DNA of 64,000 nt, taken from NCBI RefSeq assembly GCF_009914755.1, contig NC_060943.1, one strand, 5' to 3'. The notes under the pieces are model-generated. The model made no database searches and was not told where the DNA came from. It worked only from the letters and a program-made list of their open reading frames with translations. Below are positions 2,780 to 46,035 of the stretch, piece after piece; within the stretch, counting starts at the first letter, position 1; every line of letters begins with the position of its first letter. Source of the DNA: the human T2T-CHM13v2.0 reference genome, Homo sapiens. The position numbers and the translations under genes were made by a program.

Positions 2780-2917
2780 TACAGTTCCCCTTCCTCCCTC
2801 CAGGGGGCGCCATGGAACGCAGGGCCCTCACTGGCCCTGGGGACTGGGTGACGTCAGGGGTGAGCCTCTGGTGATTGGCTCCCTCACCCTGCGTAAGATC
2901 AAAGGGCCTAAAGGTCA
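2780..2917 (+). promoter_or_regulatory. Upstream motif cassette of snaR (CTCF, CRE, CCAAT, TCF/LEF, NBRE); present in every unit
   Basis: TACAGTTCC (2780-2788) plus CCTCCAGGGGGCGC (2797-2810) for CTCF; TGACGTCA (2849-2856); TGATTGGCT (2872-2880); AGATCAAAGGG (2896-2906); AAAGGTCA (2910-2917). Other copies start at 8162, 13552, 18945, 24331, 29717, 35108, 40502 and 45888. These are motif matches only; binding is not shown. Confidence 0.7.
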
Positions 2918-2927
2918 GCCCCGACAC

Positions 2928-3046
2928 CCGGAGCCATTGTGGCTCCGGCCGGTTGCGCGGGCCCTCGGACCCTCAGAGAGGCGAGGGTTCGAGGGCACGA
3001 GTTCGAGGCCAACCTGGTCCACATGGGTTGAAAAAAAAATTTTTTT
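2928..3046 (+). ncRNA. SNAR-C: snaR (small NF90/ILF3-associated RNA), B/C type, Pol III; copy 1
   Basis: Reads CCGGAGCCATTGTGGCTCCGGCCGG...GAGTTCGAGGCCAACCTGGTCCACATGGGTTG-A9-T7. Has an A-box-like TGGCTCCGGCCGG (2940-2952), a B box AGTTCGAGGCC (3000-3010) and an oligo-T terminator (3040-3046). Matches the recalled snaR family sequence; the subtype call is from memory and gene numbers cannot be assigned. Confidence 0.92.
3040..3046 (+). terminator. Pol III oligo(dT) terminator of snaR (T7, in every unit)
   Basis: First run of 4 or more T after the B box, directly following A9. Confidence 0.85.
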
Positions 3047-7201: not shown

Positions 7202-8309
7202 TCAGTCTCAAAAAAAAAAAAAAAAAAAAAAAAAGGATTTAATGAATGAATGATGAGACCGTTGGTGACATCTCCCACCTTCTCCCTCTCACTCCACTGC
7301 AGCCACACGGGGCTCCTCACTGTTCCCGTAGCAGCAGGCATGTGCCCCCACAGGGCCTCTGTACTGGCTGTTCCCACTGCCCGAACACCCTCATGCACCA
7401 TCTGCACTGTCCAATACGGCCGCCTCTGGCCACACATGGCTACTGAGCAGTTGAACATGGCTGGTCCAAACCAACATTTCCAAGACGTCGTGTGGTAAAA
7501 AAAACAACATAAAGTTTTGCAAAAATGTTTCTATTGATTATGTTAAAATTATGATGTTTTAGGTATATTAGGTTAAATCAGCTATTTTATCAAAATGAAT
7601 CTCGCCTGTTTGTTTTTGCTTTTTTTTTTTTTTTTTTTTTTGAGATGGAGTCTCGCTCTGTCGCCCAGGCTAGAGTACAATGGCGTGGTCTCAGCTCACT
7701 GCATCACTGCAACCTCTACCTCCCAGGTTCAAGCGATTCTCCTACCTCACCCTCCCAAGTGGCTGGGATTACAGGCGTGTGCCACCACACCCAGCTAATT
7801 TTTGTATTTTTGTAGAGACAGGGTTTCACCATGTTGGCCAGGCTGGTCTCGAACTGCTGACCTCGTGATCTACCTGCCTCGGCCTCCCAAAGTCCTGGGA
7901 TTACAGGTGTGGGCCACTGCGCCGGCCATGTTTCTCGACTTCTGCTGGCAAGCATGTTCCAGTATTTGCATGGCTCCTAGCCCTCATCTCCATTTCTCTG
8001 CACAGATGTTATCTTCCCCATGAGGTCTGCCTTATACATGAGGCGTGTATTATAAAGTGCAACTGCCAATTCGCCAACCCCGTTGTTTCTTCTGTCCAGA
8101 ACACTAGGCACCATCTGATCTCCTATGCCTTTTCCTTATTGTCAGATACTGAACTCTCAGATACAGTTCCCCTTCCTCCCTCCAGGGGGCGCCATGGAAC
8201 GCAGGGCCCTCACTGGCCCTGGGGACTGGGTGACGTCAGGGGTGAGCCTCTGGTGATTGGCTCCCTCACCCTGCGTAAGATCAAAGGGCCTAAAGGTCAG
8301 CCCCGACAC

Positions 8310-12625: not shown

Positions 12626-13699
12626 TTAATGAATGAATGATGAGACCGTTGGTGACATCTCCCACCTTCTCCCTCTCACTCCACTGCAGCCACACGGGGC
12701 TCCTCACTGTTCCCGTAGCAGCAGGCATGTGCCCCCACAGGGCCTCTGTACTGGCTGTTCCCACTGCCCGAACACCCTCATGCACCATCTGCACTGTCCA
12801 ATACGGCCGCCTCTGGCCACACATGGCTACTGAGCAGTTGAACATGGCTGGTCCAAACCAACATTTCCAAGACGTCGTGTGGTAAAAAAAACAACATAAA
12901 ATTTTGCAAAAATGTTTCTATTGATTATGTTAAAATTATGATGTTTTAGGTATATTAGGTTAAATCAGCTATTTTATCAAAATGAATCTCGCCTGTTTGT
13001 TTTTGCTTTTTTTTTTTTTTTTTTTTTTTTTGAGATGGAGTCTCGCTCTGTCGCCCAGGCTAGAGTACAATGGCGTGGTCTCAGCTCACTGCATCACTGC
13101 AACCTCTACCTCCCAGGTTCAAGCGATTCTCCTACCTCACCCTCCCAAGTGGCTGGGATTACAGGCGTGTGCCACCACACCCAGCTAATTTTTGTATTTT
13201 TGTAGAGACAGGGTTTCACCATGTTGGCCAGGCTGGTCTCGAACTGCTGACCTCGTGATCTACCTGCCTCGGCCTCCCAAAGTCCTGGGATTACAGGTGT
13301 GGGCCACTGCGCCGGCCATGTTTCTCGACTTCTGCTGGCAAGCATGTTCCAGTATTTGCATGGCTCCTAGCCCTCATCTCCATTTCTCTGCACAGATGTT
13401 ATCTTCCCCATGAGGTCTGCCTTATACATGAGGCGTGTATTATAAAGTGCAACTGCCAATTCGCCAACCCCGTTGTTTCTTCTCTCCAGAACACTAGGCA
13501 CCATCTGATCTCCTATGCCTTTTCCTTATTGTCAGATACTGAACTCTCAGATACAGTTCCCCTTCCTCCCTCCAGGGGGCGCCATGGAACGCAGGGCCCT
13601 CACTGGCCCTGGGGACTGGGTGACGTCAGGGGTGAGCCTCTGGTGATTGGCTCCCTCACCCTGCGTAAGATCAAAGGGCCTAAAGGTCAGCCCCGACAC

Positions 13700-18021: not shown

Positions 18022-19092
18022 TTAATGAATGAATGATGAGACCGTTGGTGACATCTCCCACCTTCTCCCTCTCACTCCACTGCAGCCACACGGGGCTCCT
18101 CACTGTTCCCGTAGCAGCAGGCATGTGCCCCCACAGGGCCTCTGTACTGGCAGTTCCCACTGCCCGAACACCCTCATGCACCATCTGCACTGTCCAATAC
18201 GGCCGCCTCTGGCCACACATGGCTACTGAGCAGTTGAACATGGCTGATCCAAACCAAGATTTCCAAGACGTCGTGTGGTAAAAAAAACAACATAAAATTT
18301 TGCAAAAATGTTTCTATTGATTATGTTAAAATTATGATGTTTTAGGTATATTAGGTTAAATCAGCTATTTTATCAAAATGAATCTCGCCTGTTTGTTTTT
18401 GCTTTTTTTTTTTTTTTTTTTTTTGAGATGGAGTCTCGCTCTGTCGCCCAGGCTAGAGTACAATGGCGTGGTCTCAGCTCACTGCATCACTGCAACCTCT
18501 ACCTCCCAGGTTCAAGCGATTCTCCTACCTCACCCTCCCAAGTGGCTGGGATTACAGGCGTGTGCCACCACACCCAGCTAATTTTTGTATTTTTGTAGAG
18601 ACAGGGTTTCACCATGTTGGCCAGGCTGGTCTCGAACTGCTGACCTCGTGATCTACCTGCCTCGGCCTCCCAAAGTCCTGGGATTACAGGTGTGGGCCAC
18701 TGCGCCGGCCATGTTTCTCGACTTCTGCTGGCAAGCATGTTCCAGTATTTGCATGGCTCCTAGCCCTCATCTCCATTTCTCTGCACAGATGTTATCTTCC
18801 CCATGAGGTCTGCCTTATACATGAGGCGTGTATTATAAAGTGCAACTGCCAATTCGCCAACCCCGTTGTTTCTTCTCTCCAGAACACTAGGCACCATCTG
18901 ATCTCCTATGCCTTTTCCTTATTGTCAGATACTGAACTCTCAGATACAGTTCCCCTTCCTCCCTCCAGGGGGCGCCATGGAACGCAGGGCCCTCACTGGC
19001 CCTGGGGACTGGGTGACGTCAGGGGTGAGCCTCTGGTGATTGGCTCCCTCACCCTGCGTAAGATCAAAGGGCCTAAAGGTCAGCCCCGACAC

Positions 19093-23404: not shown

Positions 23405-24478
23405 TTAATGAATGAATGATGAGACCGTTGGTGACATCTCCCACCTTCTCCCTCTCACTCCACTGCAGCCACACGGGGCTCCTCACTGTTCCCGTAGCAG
23501 CAGGCATGTGCCCCCACAGGGCCTCTGTACTGGCTGTTCCCACTGCCCGAACACCCTCATGCACCATCTGCACTGTCCAATACGGCCGCCTCTGGCCACA
23601 CATGGCTACTGAGCAGTTGAACATGGCTGGTCCAAACCAACATTTCCAAGACGTCGTGTGGTAAAAAAAACAACATAAAATTTTGCAAAAATGTTTCTAT
23701 TGATTATGTTAAAATTATGATGTTTTAGGTATATTAGGTTAAATCAGCTATTTTATCAAAATGAATCTCGCCTGTTTGTTTTTGCTTTTTTTTTTTTTTT
23801 TTTTTTTTTTGAGATGGAGTCTCGCTCTGTCGCCCAGGCTAGAGTACAATGGCGTGGTCTCAGCTCACTGCATCACTGCAACCTCTACCTCCCAGGTTCA
23901 AGCGATTCTCCTACCTCACCCTCCCAAGTGGCTGGGATTACAGGCGTGTGCCACCACACCCAGCTAATTTTTGTATTTTTGTAGAGACAGGGTTTCACCA
24001 TGTTGGCCAGGCTGGTCTCGAACTGCTGACCTCGTGATCTACCTGCCTCGGCCTCCCAAAGTCCTGGGATTACAGGTGTGGGCCACTGCGCCGGCCATGT
24101 TTCTCGACTTCTGCTGGCAAGCATGTTCCAGTATTTGCATGGCTCCTAGCCCTCATCTCCATTTCTCTGCACAGATGTTATCTTCCCCATGAGGTCTGCC
24201 TTATACATGAGGCGTGTATTATAAAGTGCAACTGCCAATTCGCCAACCCCGTTGTTTCTTCTCTCCAGAACACTAGGCACCATCTGATCTCCTATGCCTT
24301 TTCCTTATTGTCAGATACTGAACTCTCAGATACAGTTCCCCTTCCTCCCTCCAGGGGGCGCCATGGAACGCAGGGCCCTCACTGGCCCTGGGGACTGGGT
24401 GACGTCAGGGGTGAGCCTCTGGTGATTGGCTCCCTCACCCTGCGTAAGATCAAAGGGCCTAAAGGTCAGCCCCGACAC

Positions 24479-28790: not shown

Positions 28791-29864
28791 TTAATGAATG
28801 AATGATGAGACCGTTGGTGACATCTCCCACCTTCTCCCTCTCACTCCACTGCAGCCACACGGGGCTCCTCACTGTTCCCGTAGCAGCAGGCATGTGCCCC
28901 CACAGGGCCTCTGTACTGGCTGTTCCCACTGCCCGAACACCCTCATGCACCATCTGCACTGTCCAATACGGCCGCCTCTGGCCACACATGGCTACTGAGC
29001 AGTTGAACATGGCTGGTCCAAACCAAGATTTCCAAGACGTCGTGTGGTAAAAAAAACAACATAAAATTTTGCAAAAATGTTTCTATTGATTATGTTAAAA
29101 TTATGATGTTTTAGGTATATTAGGTTAAATCAGCTATTTTATCAAAATGAATCTCGCCTGTTTGTTTTTGCTTTTTTTTTTTTTTTTTTTTTTTTTGAGA
29201 TGGAGTCTCGCTCTGTCGCCCAGGCTAGAGTACAATGGCGTGGTCTCAGCTCACTGCATCACTGCAACCTCTACCTCCCAGGTTCAAGCGATTCTCCTAC
29301 CTCACCCTCCCAAGTGGCTGGGATTACAGGCGTGTGCCACCACACCCAGCTAATTTTTGTATTTTTGTAGAGACAGGGTTTCACCATGTTGGCCAGGCTG
29401 GTCTCGAACTGCTGACCTCGTGATCTACCTGCCTCGGCCTCCCAAAGTCCTGGGATTACAGGTGTGGGCCACTGCGCCGGCCATGTTTCTCGACTTCTGC
29501 TGGCAAGCATGTTCCAGTATTTGCATGGCTCCTAGCCCTCATCTCCATTTCTCTGCACAGATGTTATCTTCCCCATGAGGTCTGCCTTATACATGAGGCG
29601 TGTATTATAAAGTGCAACTGCCAATTCGCCAACCCCGTTGTTTCTTCTCTCCAGAACACTAGGCACCATCTGATCTCCTATGCCTTTTCCTTATTGTCAG
29701 ATACTGAACTCTCAGATACAGTTCCCCTTCCTCCCTCCAGGGGGCGCCATGGAACGCAGGGCCCTCACTGGCCCTGGGGACTGGGTGACGTCAGGGGTGA
29801 GCCTCTGGTGATTGGCTCCCTCACCCTGCGTAAGATCAAAGGGCCTAAAGGTCAGCCCCGACAC

Positions 29865-34181: not shown

Positions 34182-35255
34182 TTAATGAATGAATGATGAG
34201 ACCGTTGGTGACATCTCCCACCTTCTCCCTCTCACTCCACTGCAGCCACACGGGGCTCCTCACTGTTCCCGTAGCAGCAGGCATGTGCCCCCACAGGGCC
34301 TCTGTACTGGCTGTTCCCACTGCCCGAACACCCTCATGCACCATCTGCACTGTCCAATACGGCCGCCTCTGGCCACACATGGCTACTGAGCAGTTGAACA
34401 TGGCTGGTCCAAACCAAGATTTCCAAGACGTCGTGTGGTAAAAAAAACAACATAAAATTTTGCAAAAATGTTTCTATTGATTATGTTAAAATTATGATGT
34501 TTTAGGTATATTAGGTTAAATCAGCTATTTTATCAAAATGAATCTCGCCTGTTTGTTTTTGCTTTTTTTTTTTTTTTTTTTTTTTTTGAGATGGAGTCTC
34601 GCTCTGTCGCCCAGGCTAGAGTACAATGGCGTGGTCTCAGCTCACTGCATCACTGCAACCTCTACCTCCCAGGTTCAAGCGATTCTCCTACCTCACCCTC
34701 CCAAGTGGCTGGGATTACAGGCGTGTGCCACCACACCCAGCTAATTTTTGTATTTTTGTAGAGACAGGGTTTCACCATGTTGGCCAGGCTGGTCTCGAAC
34801 TGCTGACCTCGTGATCTACCTGCCTCGGCCTCCCAAAGTCCTGGGATTACAGGTGTGGGCCACTGCGCCGGCCATGTTTCTCGACTTCTGCTGGCAAGCA
34901 TGTTCCAGTATTTGCATGGCTCCTAGCCCTCATCTCCATTTCTCTGCACAGATGTTATCTTCCCCATGAGGTCTGCCTTATACATGAGGCGTGTATTATA
35001 AAGTGCAACTGCCAATTCGCCAACCCCGTTGTTTCTTCTCTCCAGAACACTAGGCACCATCTGATCTCCTATGCCTTTTCCTTATTGTCAGATACTGAAC
35101 TCTCAGATACAGTTCCCCTTCCTCCCTCCAGGGGGCGCCATGGAACGCAGGGCCCTCACTGGCCCTGGGGACTGGGTGACGTCAGGGGTGAGCCTCTGGT
35201 GATTGGCTCCCTCACCCTGCGTAAGATCAAAGGGCCTAAAGGTCAGCCCCGACAC

Positions 35256-39575: not shown

Positions 39576-40649
39576 TTAATGAATGAATGATGAGACCGTT
39601 GGTGACATCTCCCACCTTCTCCCTCTCACTCCACTGCAGCCACACGGGGCTCCTCACTGTTCCCGTAGCAGCAGGCATGTGCCCCCACAGGGCCTCTGTA
39701 CTGGCTGTTCCCACTGCCCGAACACCCTCATGCACCATCTGCACTGTCCAATACGGCCGCCTCTGGCCACACATGGCTACTGAGCAGTTGAACATGGCTG
39801 GTCCAAACCAACATTTCCAAGACGTCGTGTGGTAAAAAAAACAACATAAAATTTTGCAAAAATGTTTCTATTGATTATGTTAAAATTATGATGTTTTAGG
39901 TATATTAGGTTAAATCAGCTATTTTATCAAAATGAATCTCGCCTGTTTGTTTTTGCTTTTTTTTTTTTTTTTTTTTTTTTTGAGATGGAGTCTCGCTCTG
40001 TCGCCCAGGCTAGAGTACAATGGCGTGGTCTCAGCTCACTGCATCACTGCAACCTCTACCTCCCAGGTTCAAGCGATTCTCCTACCTCACCCTCCCAAGT
40101 GGCTGGGATTACAGGCGTGTGCCACCACACCCAGCTAATTTTTGTATTTTTGTAGAGACAGGGTTTCACCATGTTGGCCAGGCTGGTCTCGAACTGCTGA
40201 CCTCGTGATCTACCTGCCTCGGCCTCCCAAAGTCCTGGGATTACAGGTGTGGGCCACTGCGCCGGCCATGTTTCTCGACTTCTGCTGGCAAGCATGTTCC
40301 AGTATTTGCATGGCTCCTAGCCCTCATCTCCATTTCTCTGCACAGATGTTATCTTCCCCATGAGGTCTGCCTTATACATGAGGCGTGTATTATAAAGTGC
40401 AACTGCCAATTCGCCAACCCCGTTATTTCTTCTCTCCAGAACACTAGGCACCATCTGATCTCCTATGCCTTTTCCTTATTGTCAGATACTGAACTCTCAG
40501 ATACAGTTCCCCTTCCTCCCTCCAGGGGGCGCCATGGAACGCAGGGCCCTCACTGGCCCTGGGGACTGGGTGACGTCAGGGGTGAGCCTCTGGTGATTGG
40601 CTCCCTCACCCTGCGTAAGATCAAAGGGCCTAAAGGTCAGCCCCGACAC

Positions 40650-44965: not shown

Positions 44966-46035
44966 TTAATGAATGAATGATGAGACCGTTGGTGACATCT
45001 CCCACCTTCTCCCTCTCACTCCACTGCAGCCACACGGGGCTCCTCACTGTTCCCGTAGCAGCAGGCATGTGCCCCCACAGGGCCTCTGTACTGGCTGTTC
45101 CCACTGCCCGAACACCCTCATGCACCATCTGCACTGTCCAATACGGCCGCCTCTGGCCACACATGGCTACTGAGCAGTTGAACATGGCTGGTCCAAACCA
45201 AGATTTCCAAGACGTCGTGTGGTAAAAAAAACAACATAAAATTTTGCAAAAATGTTTCTATTGATTATGTTAAAATTATGATGTTTTAGGTATATTAGGT
45301 TAAATCAGCTATTTTATCAAAATGAATCTCGCCTGTTTGTTTTTGCTTTTTTTTTTTTTTTTTTTTTGAGATGGAGTCTCGCTCTGTCGCCCAGGCTAGA
45401 GTACAATGGCGTGGTCTCAGCTCACTGCATCACTGCAACCTCTACCTCCCAGGTTCAAGCGATTCTCCTACCTCACCCTCCCAAGTGGCTGGGATTACAG
45501 GCGTGTGCCACCACACCCAGCTAATTTTTGTATTTTTGTAGAGACAGGGTTTCACCATGTTGGCCAGGCTGGTCTCGAACTGCTGACCTCGTGATCTACC
45601 TGCCTCGGCCTCCCAAAGTCCTGGGATTACAGGTGTGGGCCACTGCGCCGGCCATGTTTCTCAACTTCTGCTGGCAAGCATGTTCCAGTATTTGCATGGC
45701 TCCTAGCCCTCATCTCCATTTCTCTGCACAGATGTTATCTTCCCCATGAGGTCTGCCTTATACATGAGGCGTGTATTATAAAGTGCAACTGCCAATTCGC
45801 CAACCCCGTTGTTTCTTCTCTCCAGAACACTAGGCACCATCTGATCTCCTATGCCTTTTCCTTATTGTCAGATACTGAACTCTCAGATACAGTTCCCCTT
45901 CCTCCCTCCAGGGGGCGCCATGGAACGCAGGGCCCTCACTGGCCCTGGGGACTGGGTGACGTCAGGGGTGAGCCTCTGGTGATTGGCTCCCTCACCCTGC
46001 GTAAGATCAAAGGGCCTAAAGGTCAGCCCCGACAC

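What the first reader, a model, noticed from the sequence alone, without database searches (positions are those of the whole stretch)
2849..2917. A dense Pol II-type signalling cassette (CRE, NF-Y, TCF/LEF, NR4A) sits directly upstream of every Pol III snaR gene
Seen: within 80 bp upstream of each snaR start lie a palindromic CRE TGACGTCA (-79), a reverse CCAAT box TGATTGGCT (-56), AGATCAAAGGG (-32 to -22) and AAAGGTCA (-18 to -11), unchanged in all 9 copies. Known: AGATCAAAGGG is the optimal TCF/LEF Wnt response element, AAAGGTCA is the NR4A monomer site (NBRE), and TFIIIB contacts DNA around -30. There is no TATA box at that position. Inference: the array may act as a multimerised Wnt/cAMP-responsive Pol III locus, which could help explain the restricted testis, placenta and tumour expression reported for snaRs. 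I am not aware of this combination being described, but I cannot check the literature. Invariance across copies reflects homogenisation, not proof of selection.
Basis: partly seen in the sequence, partly recalled or inferred. Interest (0 to 1): 0.8.

Follow-up and report, generated by a model that had tools for sequence, protein, structure and literature searches.

The report
Inherited upstream flank of snaR genes
The four motifs are really there upstream of all nine snaR-C genes in this window, but only two of them are old and widely shared among snaR copies, so this looks like an ordinary inherited promoter flank rather than a Wnt- and NR4A-responsive cassette.

Summary
TGACGTCA (-79), TGATTGGCT (-56), AGATCAAAGGG (-32/-22) and AAAGGTCA (-18/-11) precede all 9 snaR genes in the window. 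The 9 units are near-identical recent duplicates (2 variable columns of 371), so this counts as one event.

A census of the same genome found 75 flank-bearing snaR copies:
- All four motifs together: 22 of 75, all snaR-C-type.
- CCAAT box: 75 of 75, and also in two older parental-locus repeats.
- AGATCAAAGGG: 74 of 75. It is missing at snaR-G2, which is still testis-expressed.
- Palindromic CRE: 36 of 75.
- NBRE: 22 of 75. It is a single C-lineage base change in the most variable patch.

All 36 snaR-A-type genes, the dominant expressed species, lack the full CRE and the NBRE.

AGATCAAAGGG is the most AT-rich stretch of the flank. It sits at -30/-24, where type 2-hybrid Pol III promoters carry their TATA-like box.

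The same about 86 bp separates snaR-G1/G2 from the divergent CGB1/CGB2 genes.

Best reading: an inherited CCAAT/CRE promoter flank that helps Pol III. A Wnt/NR4A role is unsupported. Nothing on binding could be tested here.

The parts
2849..2856 (.). Palindromic CRE TGACGTCA, -79/-72 of snaR unit 1
   Evidence: Present in 36 of 75 snaR flanks genome-wide. It reads TGACGACA in the other 39, including all 36 snaR-A-type copies, and TGATGTCA in parental repeats 2 and 3.
2872..2880 (-). Inverted CCAAT box (AGCCAATCA on the minus strand), -56/-48
   Evidence: Present in 75 of 75 flanks. GTGATTGGCT is intact in both older parental repeats, although the surrounding -74..-35 segment is only 57% identical between repeats 1 and 3.
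2896..2906 (+). AGATCAAAGGG, -32/-22: a TCF/LEF-consensus match that coincides with the TATA-like box position
   Evidence: Present in 74 of 75 flanks. Absent at snaR-G2 and in parental repeats 2 and 3. TAAGATCAAA (-34/-25) has 20% GC in a flank of 64% GC. TATA-like boxes of type 2 genes lie at -30/-24 (PMC7279448 Table 1).
2910..2917 (+). AAAGGTCA (NBRE match), -18/-11
   Evidence: Present in only 22 of 75 flanks. Elsewhere it reads AAAGGACA, ACAGGACA, AAATGTCA, AAAGGATG or AAAGGAGA.
2841..2847 (-). Initiator-like CCAGTCC on the minus strand, with its A at snaR -83
   Evidence: Read from the sequence against the recalled consensus YYANWYY. It lies in the block CTGGGGACTGGGTGA, which is invariant in all 11 aligned paralogues. 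The CGB1 5' end is reported 86 nt upstream of snaR-G1 (PMC2094060). This is an inference, not a mapped start site.
2928..3046 (+). snaR-C gene, unit 1 (Pol III, internal promoter, T-run terminator)
   Evidence: Rfam RF02556 hit at 2928-3042, 109.3 bits against a gathering score of 98. The sequence is identical to the annotated SNAR-C3 and SNAR-C1 units.
8231..8299 (+). Cassette, unit 2
13621..13689 (+). Cassette, unit 3
19014..19082 (+). Cassette, unit 4
24400..24468 (+). Cassette, unit 5
29786..29854 (+). Cassette, unit 6
35177..35245 (+). Cassette, unit 7
40571..40639 (+). Cassette, unit 8 (upstream of the annotated SNAR-C3)
   Evidence: and the hub annotation.
45957..46025 (+). Cassette, unit 9 (upstream of the annotated SNAR-C1)
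   Evidence: and the hub annotation.

Best explanation
The 69-bp stretch is part of the roughly 150-bp 5' flank that every segmentally duplicated snaR gene carried along from one parental chr19 locus. It is not a purpose-built four-part signalling cassette.

My reading of its parts:
1. The AT-rich -34/-24 segment (TAAGATCAAAG) is the TATA-like region. TFIIIC bound to the internal A and B boxes would place TFIIIB there.
2. The inverted CCAAT box at about -50 and the CRE at -79 are ancestral Pol II-type elements. By analogy with the 'type 2-hybrid' genes (7SL, vault, EBER, 4.5SH/4.5SI), they modestly raise or gate Pol III transcription. They are not required for it.
3. The same about 86 bp also acts as a divergent Pol II proximal promoter, as it does for CGB1/CGB2 next to snaR-G1/G2.
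4. The NBRE match is a chance, C-lineage-specific point change.

Shown here: the motif positions, the copy census, the ancestry of each motif, the AT-rich -30 position, and the head-to-head CGB arrangement.
Inferred: every statement about factor binding and about effects on transcription.
For: Census of 75 flank-bearing copies (hand tally): CCAAT 75 of 75, AGATCAAAGGG 74 of 75, TGACGTCA 36 of 75, AAAGGTCA 22 of 75. The exact 69-mer occurs 22 times, all in chr19 array 1.

Older parental repeats 2 and 3 keep GTGATTGGCT and carry TGATGTCA. They lack the TCF and NBRE matches.

The lowest GC of the flank is at -34/-25. Published TATA-like boxes of type 2 genes lie at -30/-24 with two or three G/C, for example vault TCAAGAAA. 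The same paper lists CRE or C/EBP sites near -50 and Sp1 sites at -90/-60, with 1.4- to 3-fold effects on mutation (PMC7279448, passages and Table 1).

Both snaR-G copies lie head-to-head with CGB-type genes (Pfam Cys_knot, E 2e-18 and 7e-12). snaR-G1 is 86 nt from the CGB1 5' end (PMC2094060). The G-duplicon replaced the CGB proximal promoter and shifted expression towards testis (PMC3337139).

Parrott et al. themselves speculated that the conserved flank exerts tissue-specific control (PMC3045588).
Against: No binding, methylation or expression data could be examined here.

snaR-A was transcribed in HeLa nuclear extract from constructs with less or no upstream sequence (PMC2094060; qualitative, and with the snaR-A flank).

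The CRE sits at -79, not at the roughly -50 position typical of type 2-hybrid genes.

Among 13 flank haplotypes, CRE+CCAAT+TCF columns vary in 3 of 28 against 10 of 44 non-motif columns (Fisher p=0.23). There is therefore no significant sign of constraint.

Between old parental repeats, the -75..+1 stretch is less conserved (57-67%) than the upstream part of the repeat, most of which is 85-95% identical. The cassette is not a conservation peak.

A 2023 review files snaR as plain type 2, not hybrid (PMC10498592).
Confidence: 0.5

Rival explanations
1. The array is a multimerised Wnt (TCF/LEF), cAMP (CREB), NF-Y and NR4A-responsive Pol III locus. These four inputs together set the testis, placenta and tumour restriction of snaR expression.
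For: All four consensus matches are exact and present in 9 of 9 units. AGATCAAAGGG is kept in 74 of 75 copies genome-wide. From recall, it matches the optimal TCF/LEF site used in reporter constructs. snaR-C, which has all four motifs, is the most testis-restricted species measured (PMC3045588).
Against: The NBRE is in only 22 of 75 copies and lies in the most variable patch. All 36 snaR-A-type genes lack the NBRE and the palindromic CRE, yet snaR-A is more abundant than snaR-C and peaks in testis. snaR-G2 lacks the TCF match and still peaks in testis. A gene identical to snaR-C also occurs behind a flank without the CRE palindrome or NBRE (L014). The TCF match overlaps the expected TFIIIB footprint. 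No paper linking snaR to TCF, CREB or NF-Y sites turned up.
Confidence: 0.07
2. The flank is essentially a Pol II promoter into which the Alu-derived element once inserted. The CCAAT box, the CRE and an initiator-like element drive divergent Pol II transcription, as at CGB1/2. They have no meaningful effect on Pol III, which relies on the internal A and B boxes alone.
For: The most conserved block is CTGGGGACTGGGTGA, which is invariant in 11 of 11 aligned paralogues. The CCAAT box is equally kept. The block contains an initiator-like CCAGTCC on the minus strand, close to the reported CGB1 5' end. Upstream sequence is dispensable for snaR-A transcription in vitro. Hallast et al. predicted CRE/ATF, SF-1 and ERE-type sites in the homologous CGB1/2 insert and treated it as a Pol II promoter (PMC2599907).
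Against: In the A/B/C duplicons, homology to the parental flank ends at about -148. The CGB1/2 first exon and its splice donor are therefore not carried along. No Pol II gene is annotated upstream of the units in the window (hub table). Other 7SL-derived and type 2 genes do use CRE-type upstream sites for Pol III.
Confidence: 0.2
3. Neutral passenger. Apart from providing a tolerable AT-rich -30 region, the motif matches in the A/B/C arrays have no function. Restricted expression comes from chromatin state or DNA methylation of the arrays and from Pol III (POLR3G) availability.
For: Conservation tests give no significant constraint. Identity among the 9 units only reflects the recent duplication. 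snaR-A activity tracks POLR3G level and chromatin accessibility (PMC9151912). Tissue-restricted Pol III genes are reported enriched in lamina-associated domains, an enrichment that mirrors that of DNA methylation (PMC12424700). SNAR-D, which Parrott 2007 reports to lack the 5' flank, is listed as co-upregulated with other SNARs in liver tumours (PMC7863452). Array cross-hybridisation could explain that last result.
Against: The CCAAT 10-mer survives intact in a segment that is otherwise 57% identical between old repeats. AGATCAAAGGG is kept in 74 of 75 copies, while the adjacent -21/-10 stretch varies freely.
Confidence: 0.2

Closest known systems
Type 2-hybrid Pol III promoters (7SL, vault RNAs, EBER1/2, 4.5SH/4.5SI, BC200, nc886)
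   Same: Internal A and B boxes combined with a non-canonical AT-rich TATA-like box at -30/-24 and Pol II-type factor sites further upstream. Examples are TGACGTCA in 7SL-1 and a C/EBP site at -51/-42 in 4.5SI. The snaR flank has an AT-rich -34/-24 segment, a CCAAT box at about -50 and a CRE in the -90/-60 zone. snaR, like BC200 and 4.5SH, descends from 7SL/Alu.
   Different: In those genes the CRE lies at about -50 and the -90/-60 element is Sp1. In snaR the -50 element is an NF-Y-type CCAAT box and the CRE is at -79. No functional test exists for snaR. The review I read files snaR as plain type 2. snaR-A transcription in HeLa extract did not need upstream DNA.
The snaR-G1/CGB1 and snaR-G2/CGB2 divergent promoter (G-duplicon)
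   Same: It is the paralogous copy of the same flank. CRE and CCAAT are present in both copies, and AGATCAAAGGG in G1. The Pol III gene and the Pol II gene lie head-to-head, about 86 bp apart. CRE/ATF and nuclear-receptor half-site predictions for this insert were published in 2007.
   Different: In the window no Pol II gene lies upstream, and homology to the G-duplicon ends at about -148. G1 and G2 lack the NBRE, and G2 lacks the TCF match.
TCF/LEF Wnt-response elements and NR4A NBRE sites (consensus recalled, not from a call)
   Same: Exact string matches to AGATCAAAGG(G) and AAAGGTCA.
   Different: There is no evidence of occupancy or response. The NBRE is not shared by paralogues. The TCF match overlaps the TFIIIB position of a Pol III gene, which is not a context described for Wnt enhancers in anything I read.

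Membership tests
Type 2-hybrid Pol III promoter | Pol III gene with internal A and B boxes and an oligo-T terminator | tested here: met
   Rfam snaR-A model hits at all 9 genes and a T7 run at the 3' end. Pol III transcription from an intragenic promoter is from PMC2094060 and was not re-tested.
Type 2-hybrid Pol III promoter | TATA-like, G/C-poor box at about -30/-24 | tested here: met
   ATCAAAG at -30/-24 has 2 G/C of 7. The GC minimum of the flank is at -34/-25. The criterion is taken from PMC7279448.
Type 2-hybrid Pol III promoter | ATF/CRE (or C/EBP) site near -50 | tested here: not met
   The CRE is at -79/-72. The -56/-48 position holds an inverted CCAAT box instead.
Type 2-hybrid Pol III promoter | Upstream elements measurably contribute to Pol III transcription | not testable with these tools
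   The only published data I saw are qualitative: snaR-A was made in HeLa extract with less or no upstream DNA.
TCF/LEF Wnt-response element | Core consensus match | tested here: met
   AGATCAAAGGG in 9 of 9 window units and 74 of 75 copies genome-wide. The consensus itself is recalled.
TCF/LEF Wnt-response element | Retained wherever the regulated expression pattern is retained | tested here: not met
   snaR-G2 reads AGGTCAAAAGG yet is most abundant in testis. The older parental repeats also lack the match.
TCF/LEF Wnt-response element | TCF/LEF and beta-catenin occupancy, and Wnt responsiveness | not testable with these tools
   No ChIP or expression data are available here. Literature searches found nothing relevant.
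NR4A NBRE | AAAGGTCA present and shared among related copies | tested here: not met
   Present in 22 of 75 copies. 5 of 8 NBRE columns vary among 13 haplotypes against 13 of 72 elsewhere (p=0.012).
CREB/ATF CRE | Palindromic TGACGTCA or a TGACG half-site | tested here: met
   Palindrome in 36 of 75 copies and the half-site form TGACGACA in 39 of 75. The older repeats read TGATGTCA.
NF-Y CCAAT box | CCAAT pentamer with favourable flanks, conserved among copies | tested here: met
   AGCCAATCA is in 75 of 75 copies and in both older repeats. The flank preference RRCCAATSR is recalled.
Divergent Pol II / Pol III promoter (CGB1/2-snaR-G type) | A Pol II gene head-to-head within about 100 bp | tested here: not met
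   Met at G1 and G2. In the window no gene is annotated upstream, and homology to the parental flank ends at about -148 (and the hub table).

The most novel reading that the evidence does not exclude
The perfect HMG-box site AGATCAAAGGG, kept in 74 of 75 snaR copies exactly where TFIIIB must land, is a real docking site for a DNA-bending TCF/LEF or SOX-type factor. That factor either substitutes for a TATA box or competes with TFIIIB. Together with a methylation-sensitive CRE and an NF-Y box, this would make the roughly 70-copy snaR arrays a Pol III gene family switched by Pol II-type germline or tumour signalling.
Probability: 0.1. Interest if true: 0.65.

Novelty: new member of a known kind. 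Interest (0 to 1): 0.3.

Why it matters
snaR-A is one of the most strongly tumour- and testis-restricted Pol III products, and what restricts it is unsettled. If the CCAAT/CRE flank and the AT-rich -30 element contribute, snaR would move from the plain type 2 class to the type 2-hybrid class. It would also be a recent, copy-amplified example of a Pol II promoter lending elements to a Pol III gene.

The genome provides a ready allelic series. Identical or near-identical snaR genes sit behind flanks that differ only at the CRE or at the -21/-10 patch (L001, L014, L023), and snaR-G2 supplies a flank without the -30 element. This makes the question cheap to test.

As it stands, the finding is a correct motif description of a flank that was already known to be conserved.

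Tried and rejected
- Shuffle statistics for the motifs. Rejected as evidence, because the 9 hits are one duplicated event.
- Test for fewer substitutions in motif columns among 13 flank haplotypes. CRE+CCAAT+TCF varied in 3 of 28 columns against 10 of 44 elsewhere, p=0.23, not significant.
- Test for a conservation peak among the three old parental repeats. None was found: identity falls from most windows at 85-95% upstream of -75 to 57-67% from -75 onward (repeat 1 against repeat 3). Repeats 1 and 2 are 100% identical from about -1400 to -400, so they are not independent there.
- Orthologue comparison with apes and monkeys. No primate genome is held. The supplementary alignments of PMC3045588 are in .doc and .pdf files that cannot be read here. 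They may show the motif states in gorilla, chimpanzee, orangutan and macaque.
- The Mol Cell Biol 2011 paper on CGB1/2 expression (PMC3019977) is not held. It may contain start-site or promoter mapping for the homologous flank.
- Literature searches for a prior description of snaR upstream motifs: plus passages. None describes CRE, CCAAT, TCF or NBRE sites upstream of snaR Pol III genes. The nearest are the flank-control speculation in PMC3045588 and the in-silico site predictions for the CGB1/2 insert in PMC2599907.

Full report
**1. The observation**

The window holds nine tandem units about 5.39 kb apart. Each carries a snaR gene, found by Rfam RF02556 at 109.3 bits with starts at 2928, 8310, 13700, 19093, 24479, 29865, 35256, 40650 and 46036. 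The last two are the annotated SNAR-C3 and SNAR-C1.

Each of the four strings occurs exactly nine times, once per unit. There is no canonical TATA box.

An alignment of -228..+143 from all nine units differs in only 2 of 371 columns, both far upstream. The motifs are therefore no better kept than their surroundings. The nine occurrences are one event, so the shuffle statistics say nothing about selection.

**2. The same flank elsewhere in the genome**

The window's own genome is held. A pattern anchored on the block just 5' of the CRE and on the snaR 5' end found 75 flank-bearing copies: 40 in chr19 array 1, 29 in array 2, and six others on chr19, chr1, chr2 and chr3. The control pattern gave 0 hits.

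My hand tally of the 75 printed rows:

| Motif | Copies |
|---|---|
| TGATTGGCT | 75 of 75 |
| AGATCAAAGGG | 74 of 75 |
| TGACGTCA | 36 of 75 (the other 39 read TGACGACA) |
| AAAGGTCA | 22 of 75 |

The exact 69-mer occurs 22 times, all in array 1. Eleven of these precede the window's snaR-C sequence, and eleven precede a variant with one change at +8 (covering the 44 loci L001-L044).

All 36 copies that start like snaR-A (GGCTCAGGCC) carry TGACGACA and AAAGGACA. A gene identical to the window's snaR-C also exists behind a flank with TGACGACA and AAATGTCA (L014). The four retrocopies that I read (chr19 at 49.66 Mb, chr12, chr21, chr7) have no such flank at all.

**3. Age of each motif**

I aligned the flanks of the C, A, B-like, F, G1, G2, H and I copies. 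I added the two older tandem repeats of the parental locus next to snaR-F, which carry the shorter CAS-like element.

- GTGATTGGCT is intact in all 11 sequences. So is the block CTGGGGACTGGGTGA just upstream of the CRE.
- The CRE is TGACGTCA in C, B-like, F, G1, G2, H and I. It is TGACGACA in A and TGATGTCA in both older repeats.
- AGATCAAAGGG is in every snaR-bearing lineage except G2 (AGGTCAAAAGG). It is absent from the older repeats (AGACCAAAGGA and AGGTGAAATGG).
- AAAGGTCA is unique to the C type.

I identified G2 and G1 because the published snaR-G2 and snaR-G1 primers match the L048 and L049 copies respectively.

Among 13 flank haplotypes, 18 of 80 columns (-89..-10) vary. By segment: CRE 1 of 8, CCAAT 0 of 9, TCF 2 of 11, NBRE 5 of 8, and the rest 10 of 44. 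The NBRE patch is more variable than the remainder (p=0.012). The other three motifs are not significantly less variable (p=0.23).

Between the old repeats the cassette is not a conservation peak. Repeat 1 against repeat 3 is 85-95% identical in most windows upstream of -75 and only 57-67% from -75 to +1. [quoted passage not shown]

**4. What the literature says**

I saw passages of the papers below through text searches, plus the sections I name.

- Parrott and Mathews 2007 (PMC2094060). Nearly all snaRs share about 150 bp of 5' flank. snaR-A is made by Pol III in HeLa extract from constructs with less or no upstream DNA. snaR-G1 lies 86 nt from the divergent CGB1 5' end.
- Parrott et al. 2011 (PMC3045588; sections 15, 19 and 25). 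They trace the flank to a 1.9-kb parental locus shared with macaque. They speculate that the flank 'exerts tissue-specific transcriptional control'. They report abundance in the order snaR-A, then snaR-C, then snaR-G2, all highest in testis.
- Hallast et al. 2007 (PMC2599907; section 14). They predicted CRE/ATF, SF-1, ERE-type and other sites in the homologous CGB1/2 insert.
- A 2023 review (PMC10498592). It files 7SL, BC200, vault and nc886 as 'type 2-hybrid' and snaR as plain type 2.
- Stasenko et al. 2020 (PMC7279448). They tabulate TATA-like boxes at -30/-24 with two or three G/C, CRE or C/EBP sites near -50, and Sp1 sites at -90/-60, with modest mutational effects. snaR is not in their table.

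Seven literature searches found no paper that describes these motifs upstream of snaR Pol III genes.

**5. Anatomy in that light**

The flank is 64% G+C. Its only AT-rich stretch apart from the far 5' edge is -36/-23, with a minimum of 20% G+C at TAAGATCAAA, -34/-25. The 'TCF/LEF site' therefore lies exactly where TFIIIB is placed and where related genes have a TATA-like box. The vault box TCAAGAAA is similar. The CCAAT box occupies the '-50 element' position and the CRE the '-90/-60' zone.

On the other strand, the invariant block contains CCAGTCC with its A at -83. This fits the recalled initiator consensus and lies next to the reported CGB1 start.

I confirmed that both snaR-G copies are head-to-head with CGB-type genes. 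Stop-to-stop frames upstream of each give Pfam Cys_knot hits at E 2e-18 and 7e-12.

**6. Verdict on mechanism**

The reading I favour (about 0.5) is an inherited promoter flank with these parts:
- an AT-rich TFIIIB landing region;
- an NF-Y-type CCAAT box and a CRE that assist or gate Pol III, as in type 2-hybrid genes;
- a divergent Pol II promoter formed by the same DNA, demonstrably at CGB1/2;
- an NBRE match that arose by chance.

The comparative data speak directly against the NBRE. They also speak against the idea that the four-motif combination explains testis or tumour restriction. snaR-A (two of four motifs) and snaR-G2 (two of four motifs) show the same testis maximum. They do not exclude real TCF/LEF or other HMG-box binding at -30, which remains the boldest open reading.

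**7. Limits**

No ChIP, methylation, CAGE or expression data and no non-human primate genome were available. The supplements of PMC3045588, and PMC3019977, which may bear on orthologue states and on CGB1/2 start-site mapping, could not be read. All consensus definitions (TCF/LEF, NBRE, NF-Y flanks, initiator, CTCF) are recalled and come from no call.

Noticed in passing
window 2797-2811 (-131/-117) and the same offset in each of the 9 units: CCTCCAGGGGGCGCC matches 14 of 15 positions of the recalled CTCF core consensus. The stretch is identical in all 9 snaR-bearing flanks aligned and is degraded in the two older parental repeats.
   Followed up: partly
window 2928, 8310, 13700, 19093, 24479, 29865, 35256: Seven of the nine identical snaR-C genes in the window have no row in the supplied RefSeq table, which names only SNAR-C3 and SNAR-C1. 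Rfam scores all nine equally.
   Followed up: yes
G000:C1:33363484-33363590 (minus strand): A flank-bearing snaR copy on chromosome 1. It shares the snaR-H-type change in the gene's 5' end and has its own -21/-19 variant. The 2007 and 2010 papers that I read list copies on chromosomes 2, 3, 12, 19 and 21 only. The genome total of 75 flank-bearing copies compares with the roughly 30 genes reported then.
   Followed up: no
L045/L046 (G000:C19:53692112-53697872), parental locus next to snaR-F: Tandem repeats 1 and 2 of the 1.9-kb parental locus are 100% identical from about -1400 to -400 relative to snaR-F, but only 80-97% identical nearer the gene. This suggests recent gene conversion that stops short of the snaR/CAS element.
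   Followed up: partly
L014 (G000:C19:50824387) compared with window unit 1; also L023, L025 and L026: Identical or near-identical snaR-C genes sit behind flanks that differ only at the CRE and the -21/-10 patch. This is a natural allelic series for testing the motifs.
   Followed up: partly
each ~5.4-kb unit, about 1.8 kb downstream of each snaR gene (not located by me): Conti et al. (PMC4333407) report a second Pol III unit, an AluYa5 left-monomer fusion called 'Ya5-lm'. They found 11 and 10 copies in the two snaR clusters, spaced about 5.3 kb apart. I did not check it in the window.
   Followed up: no
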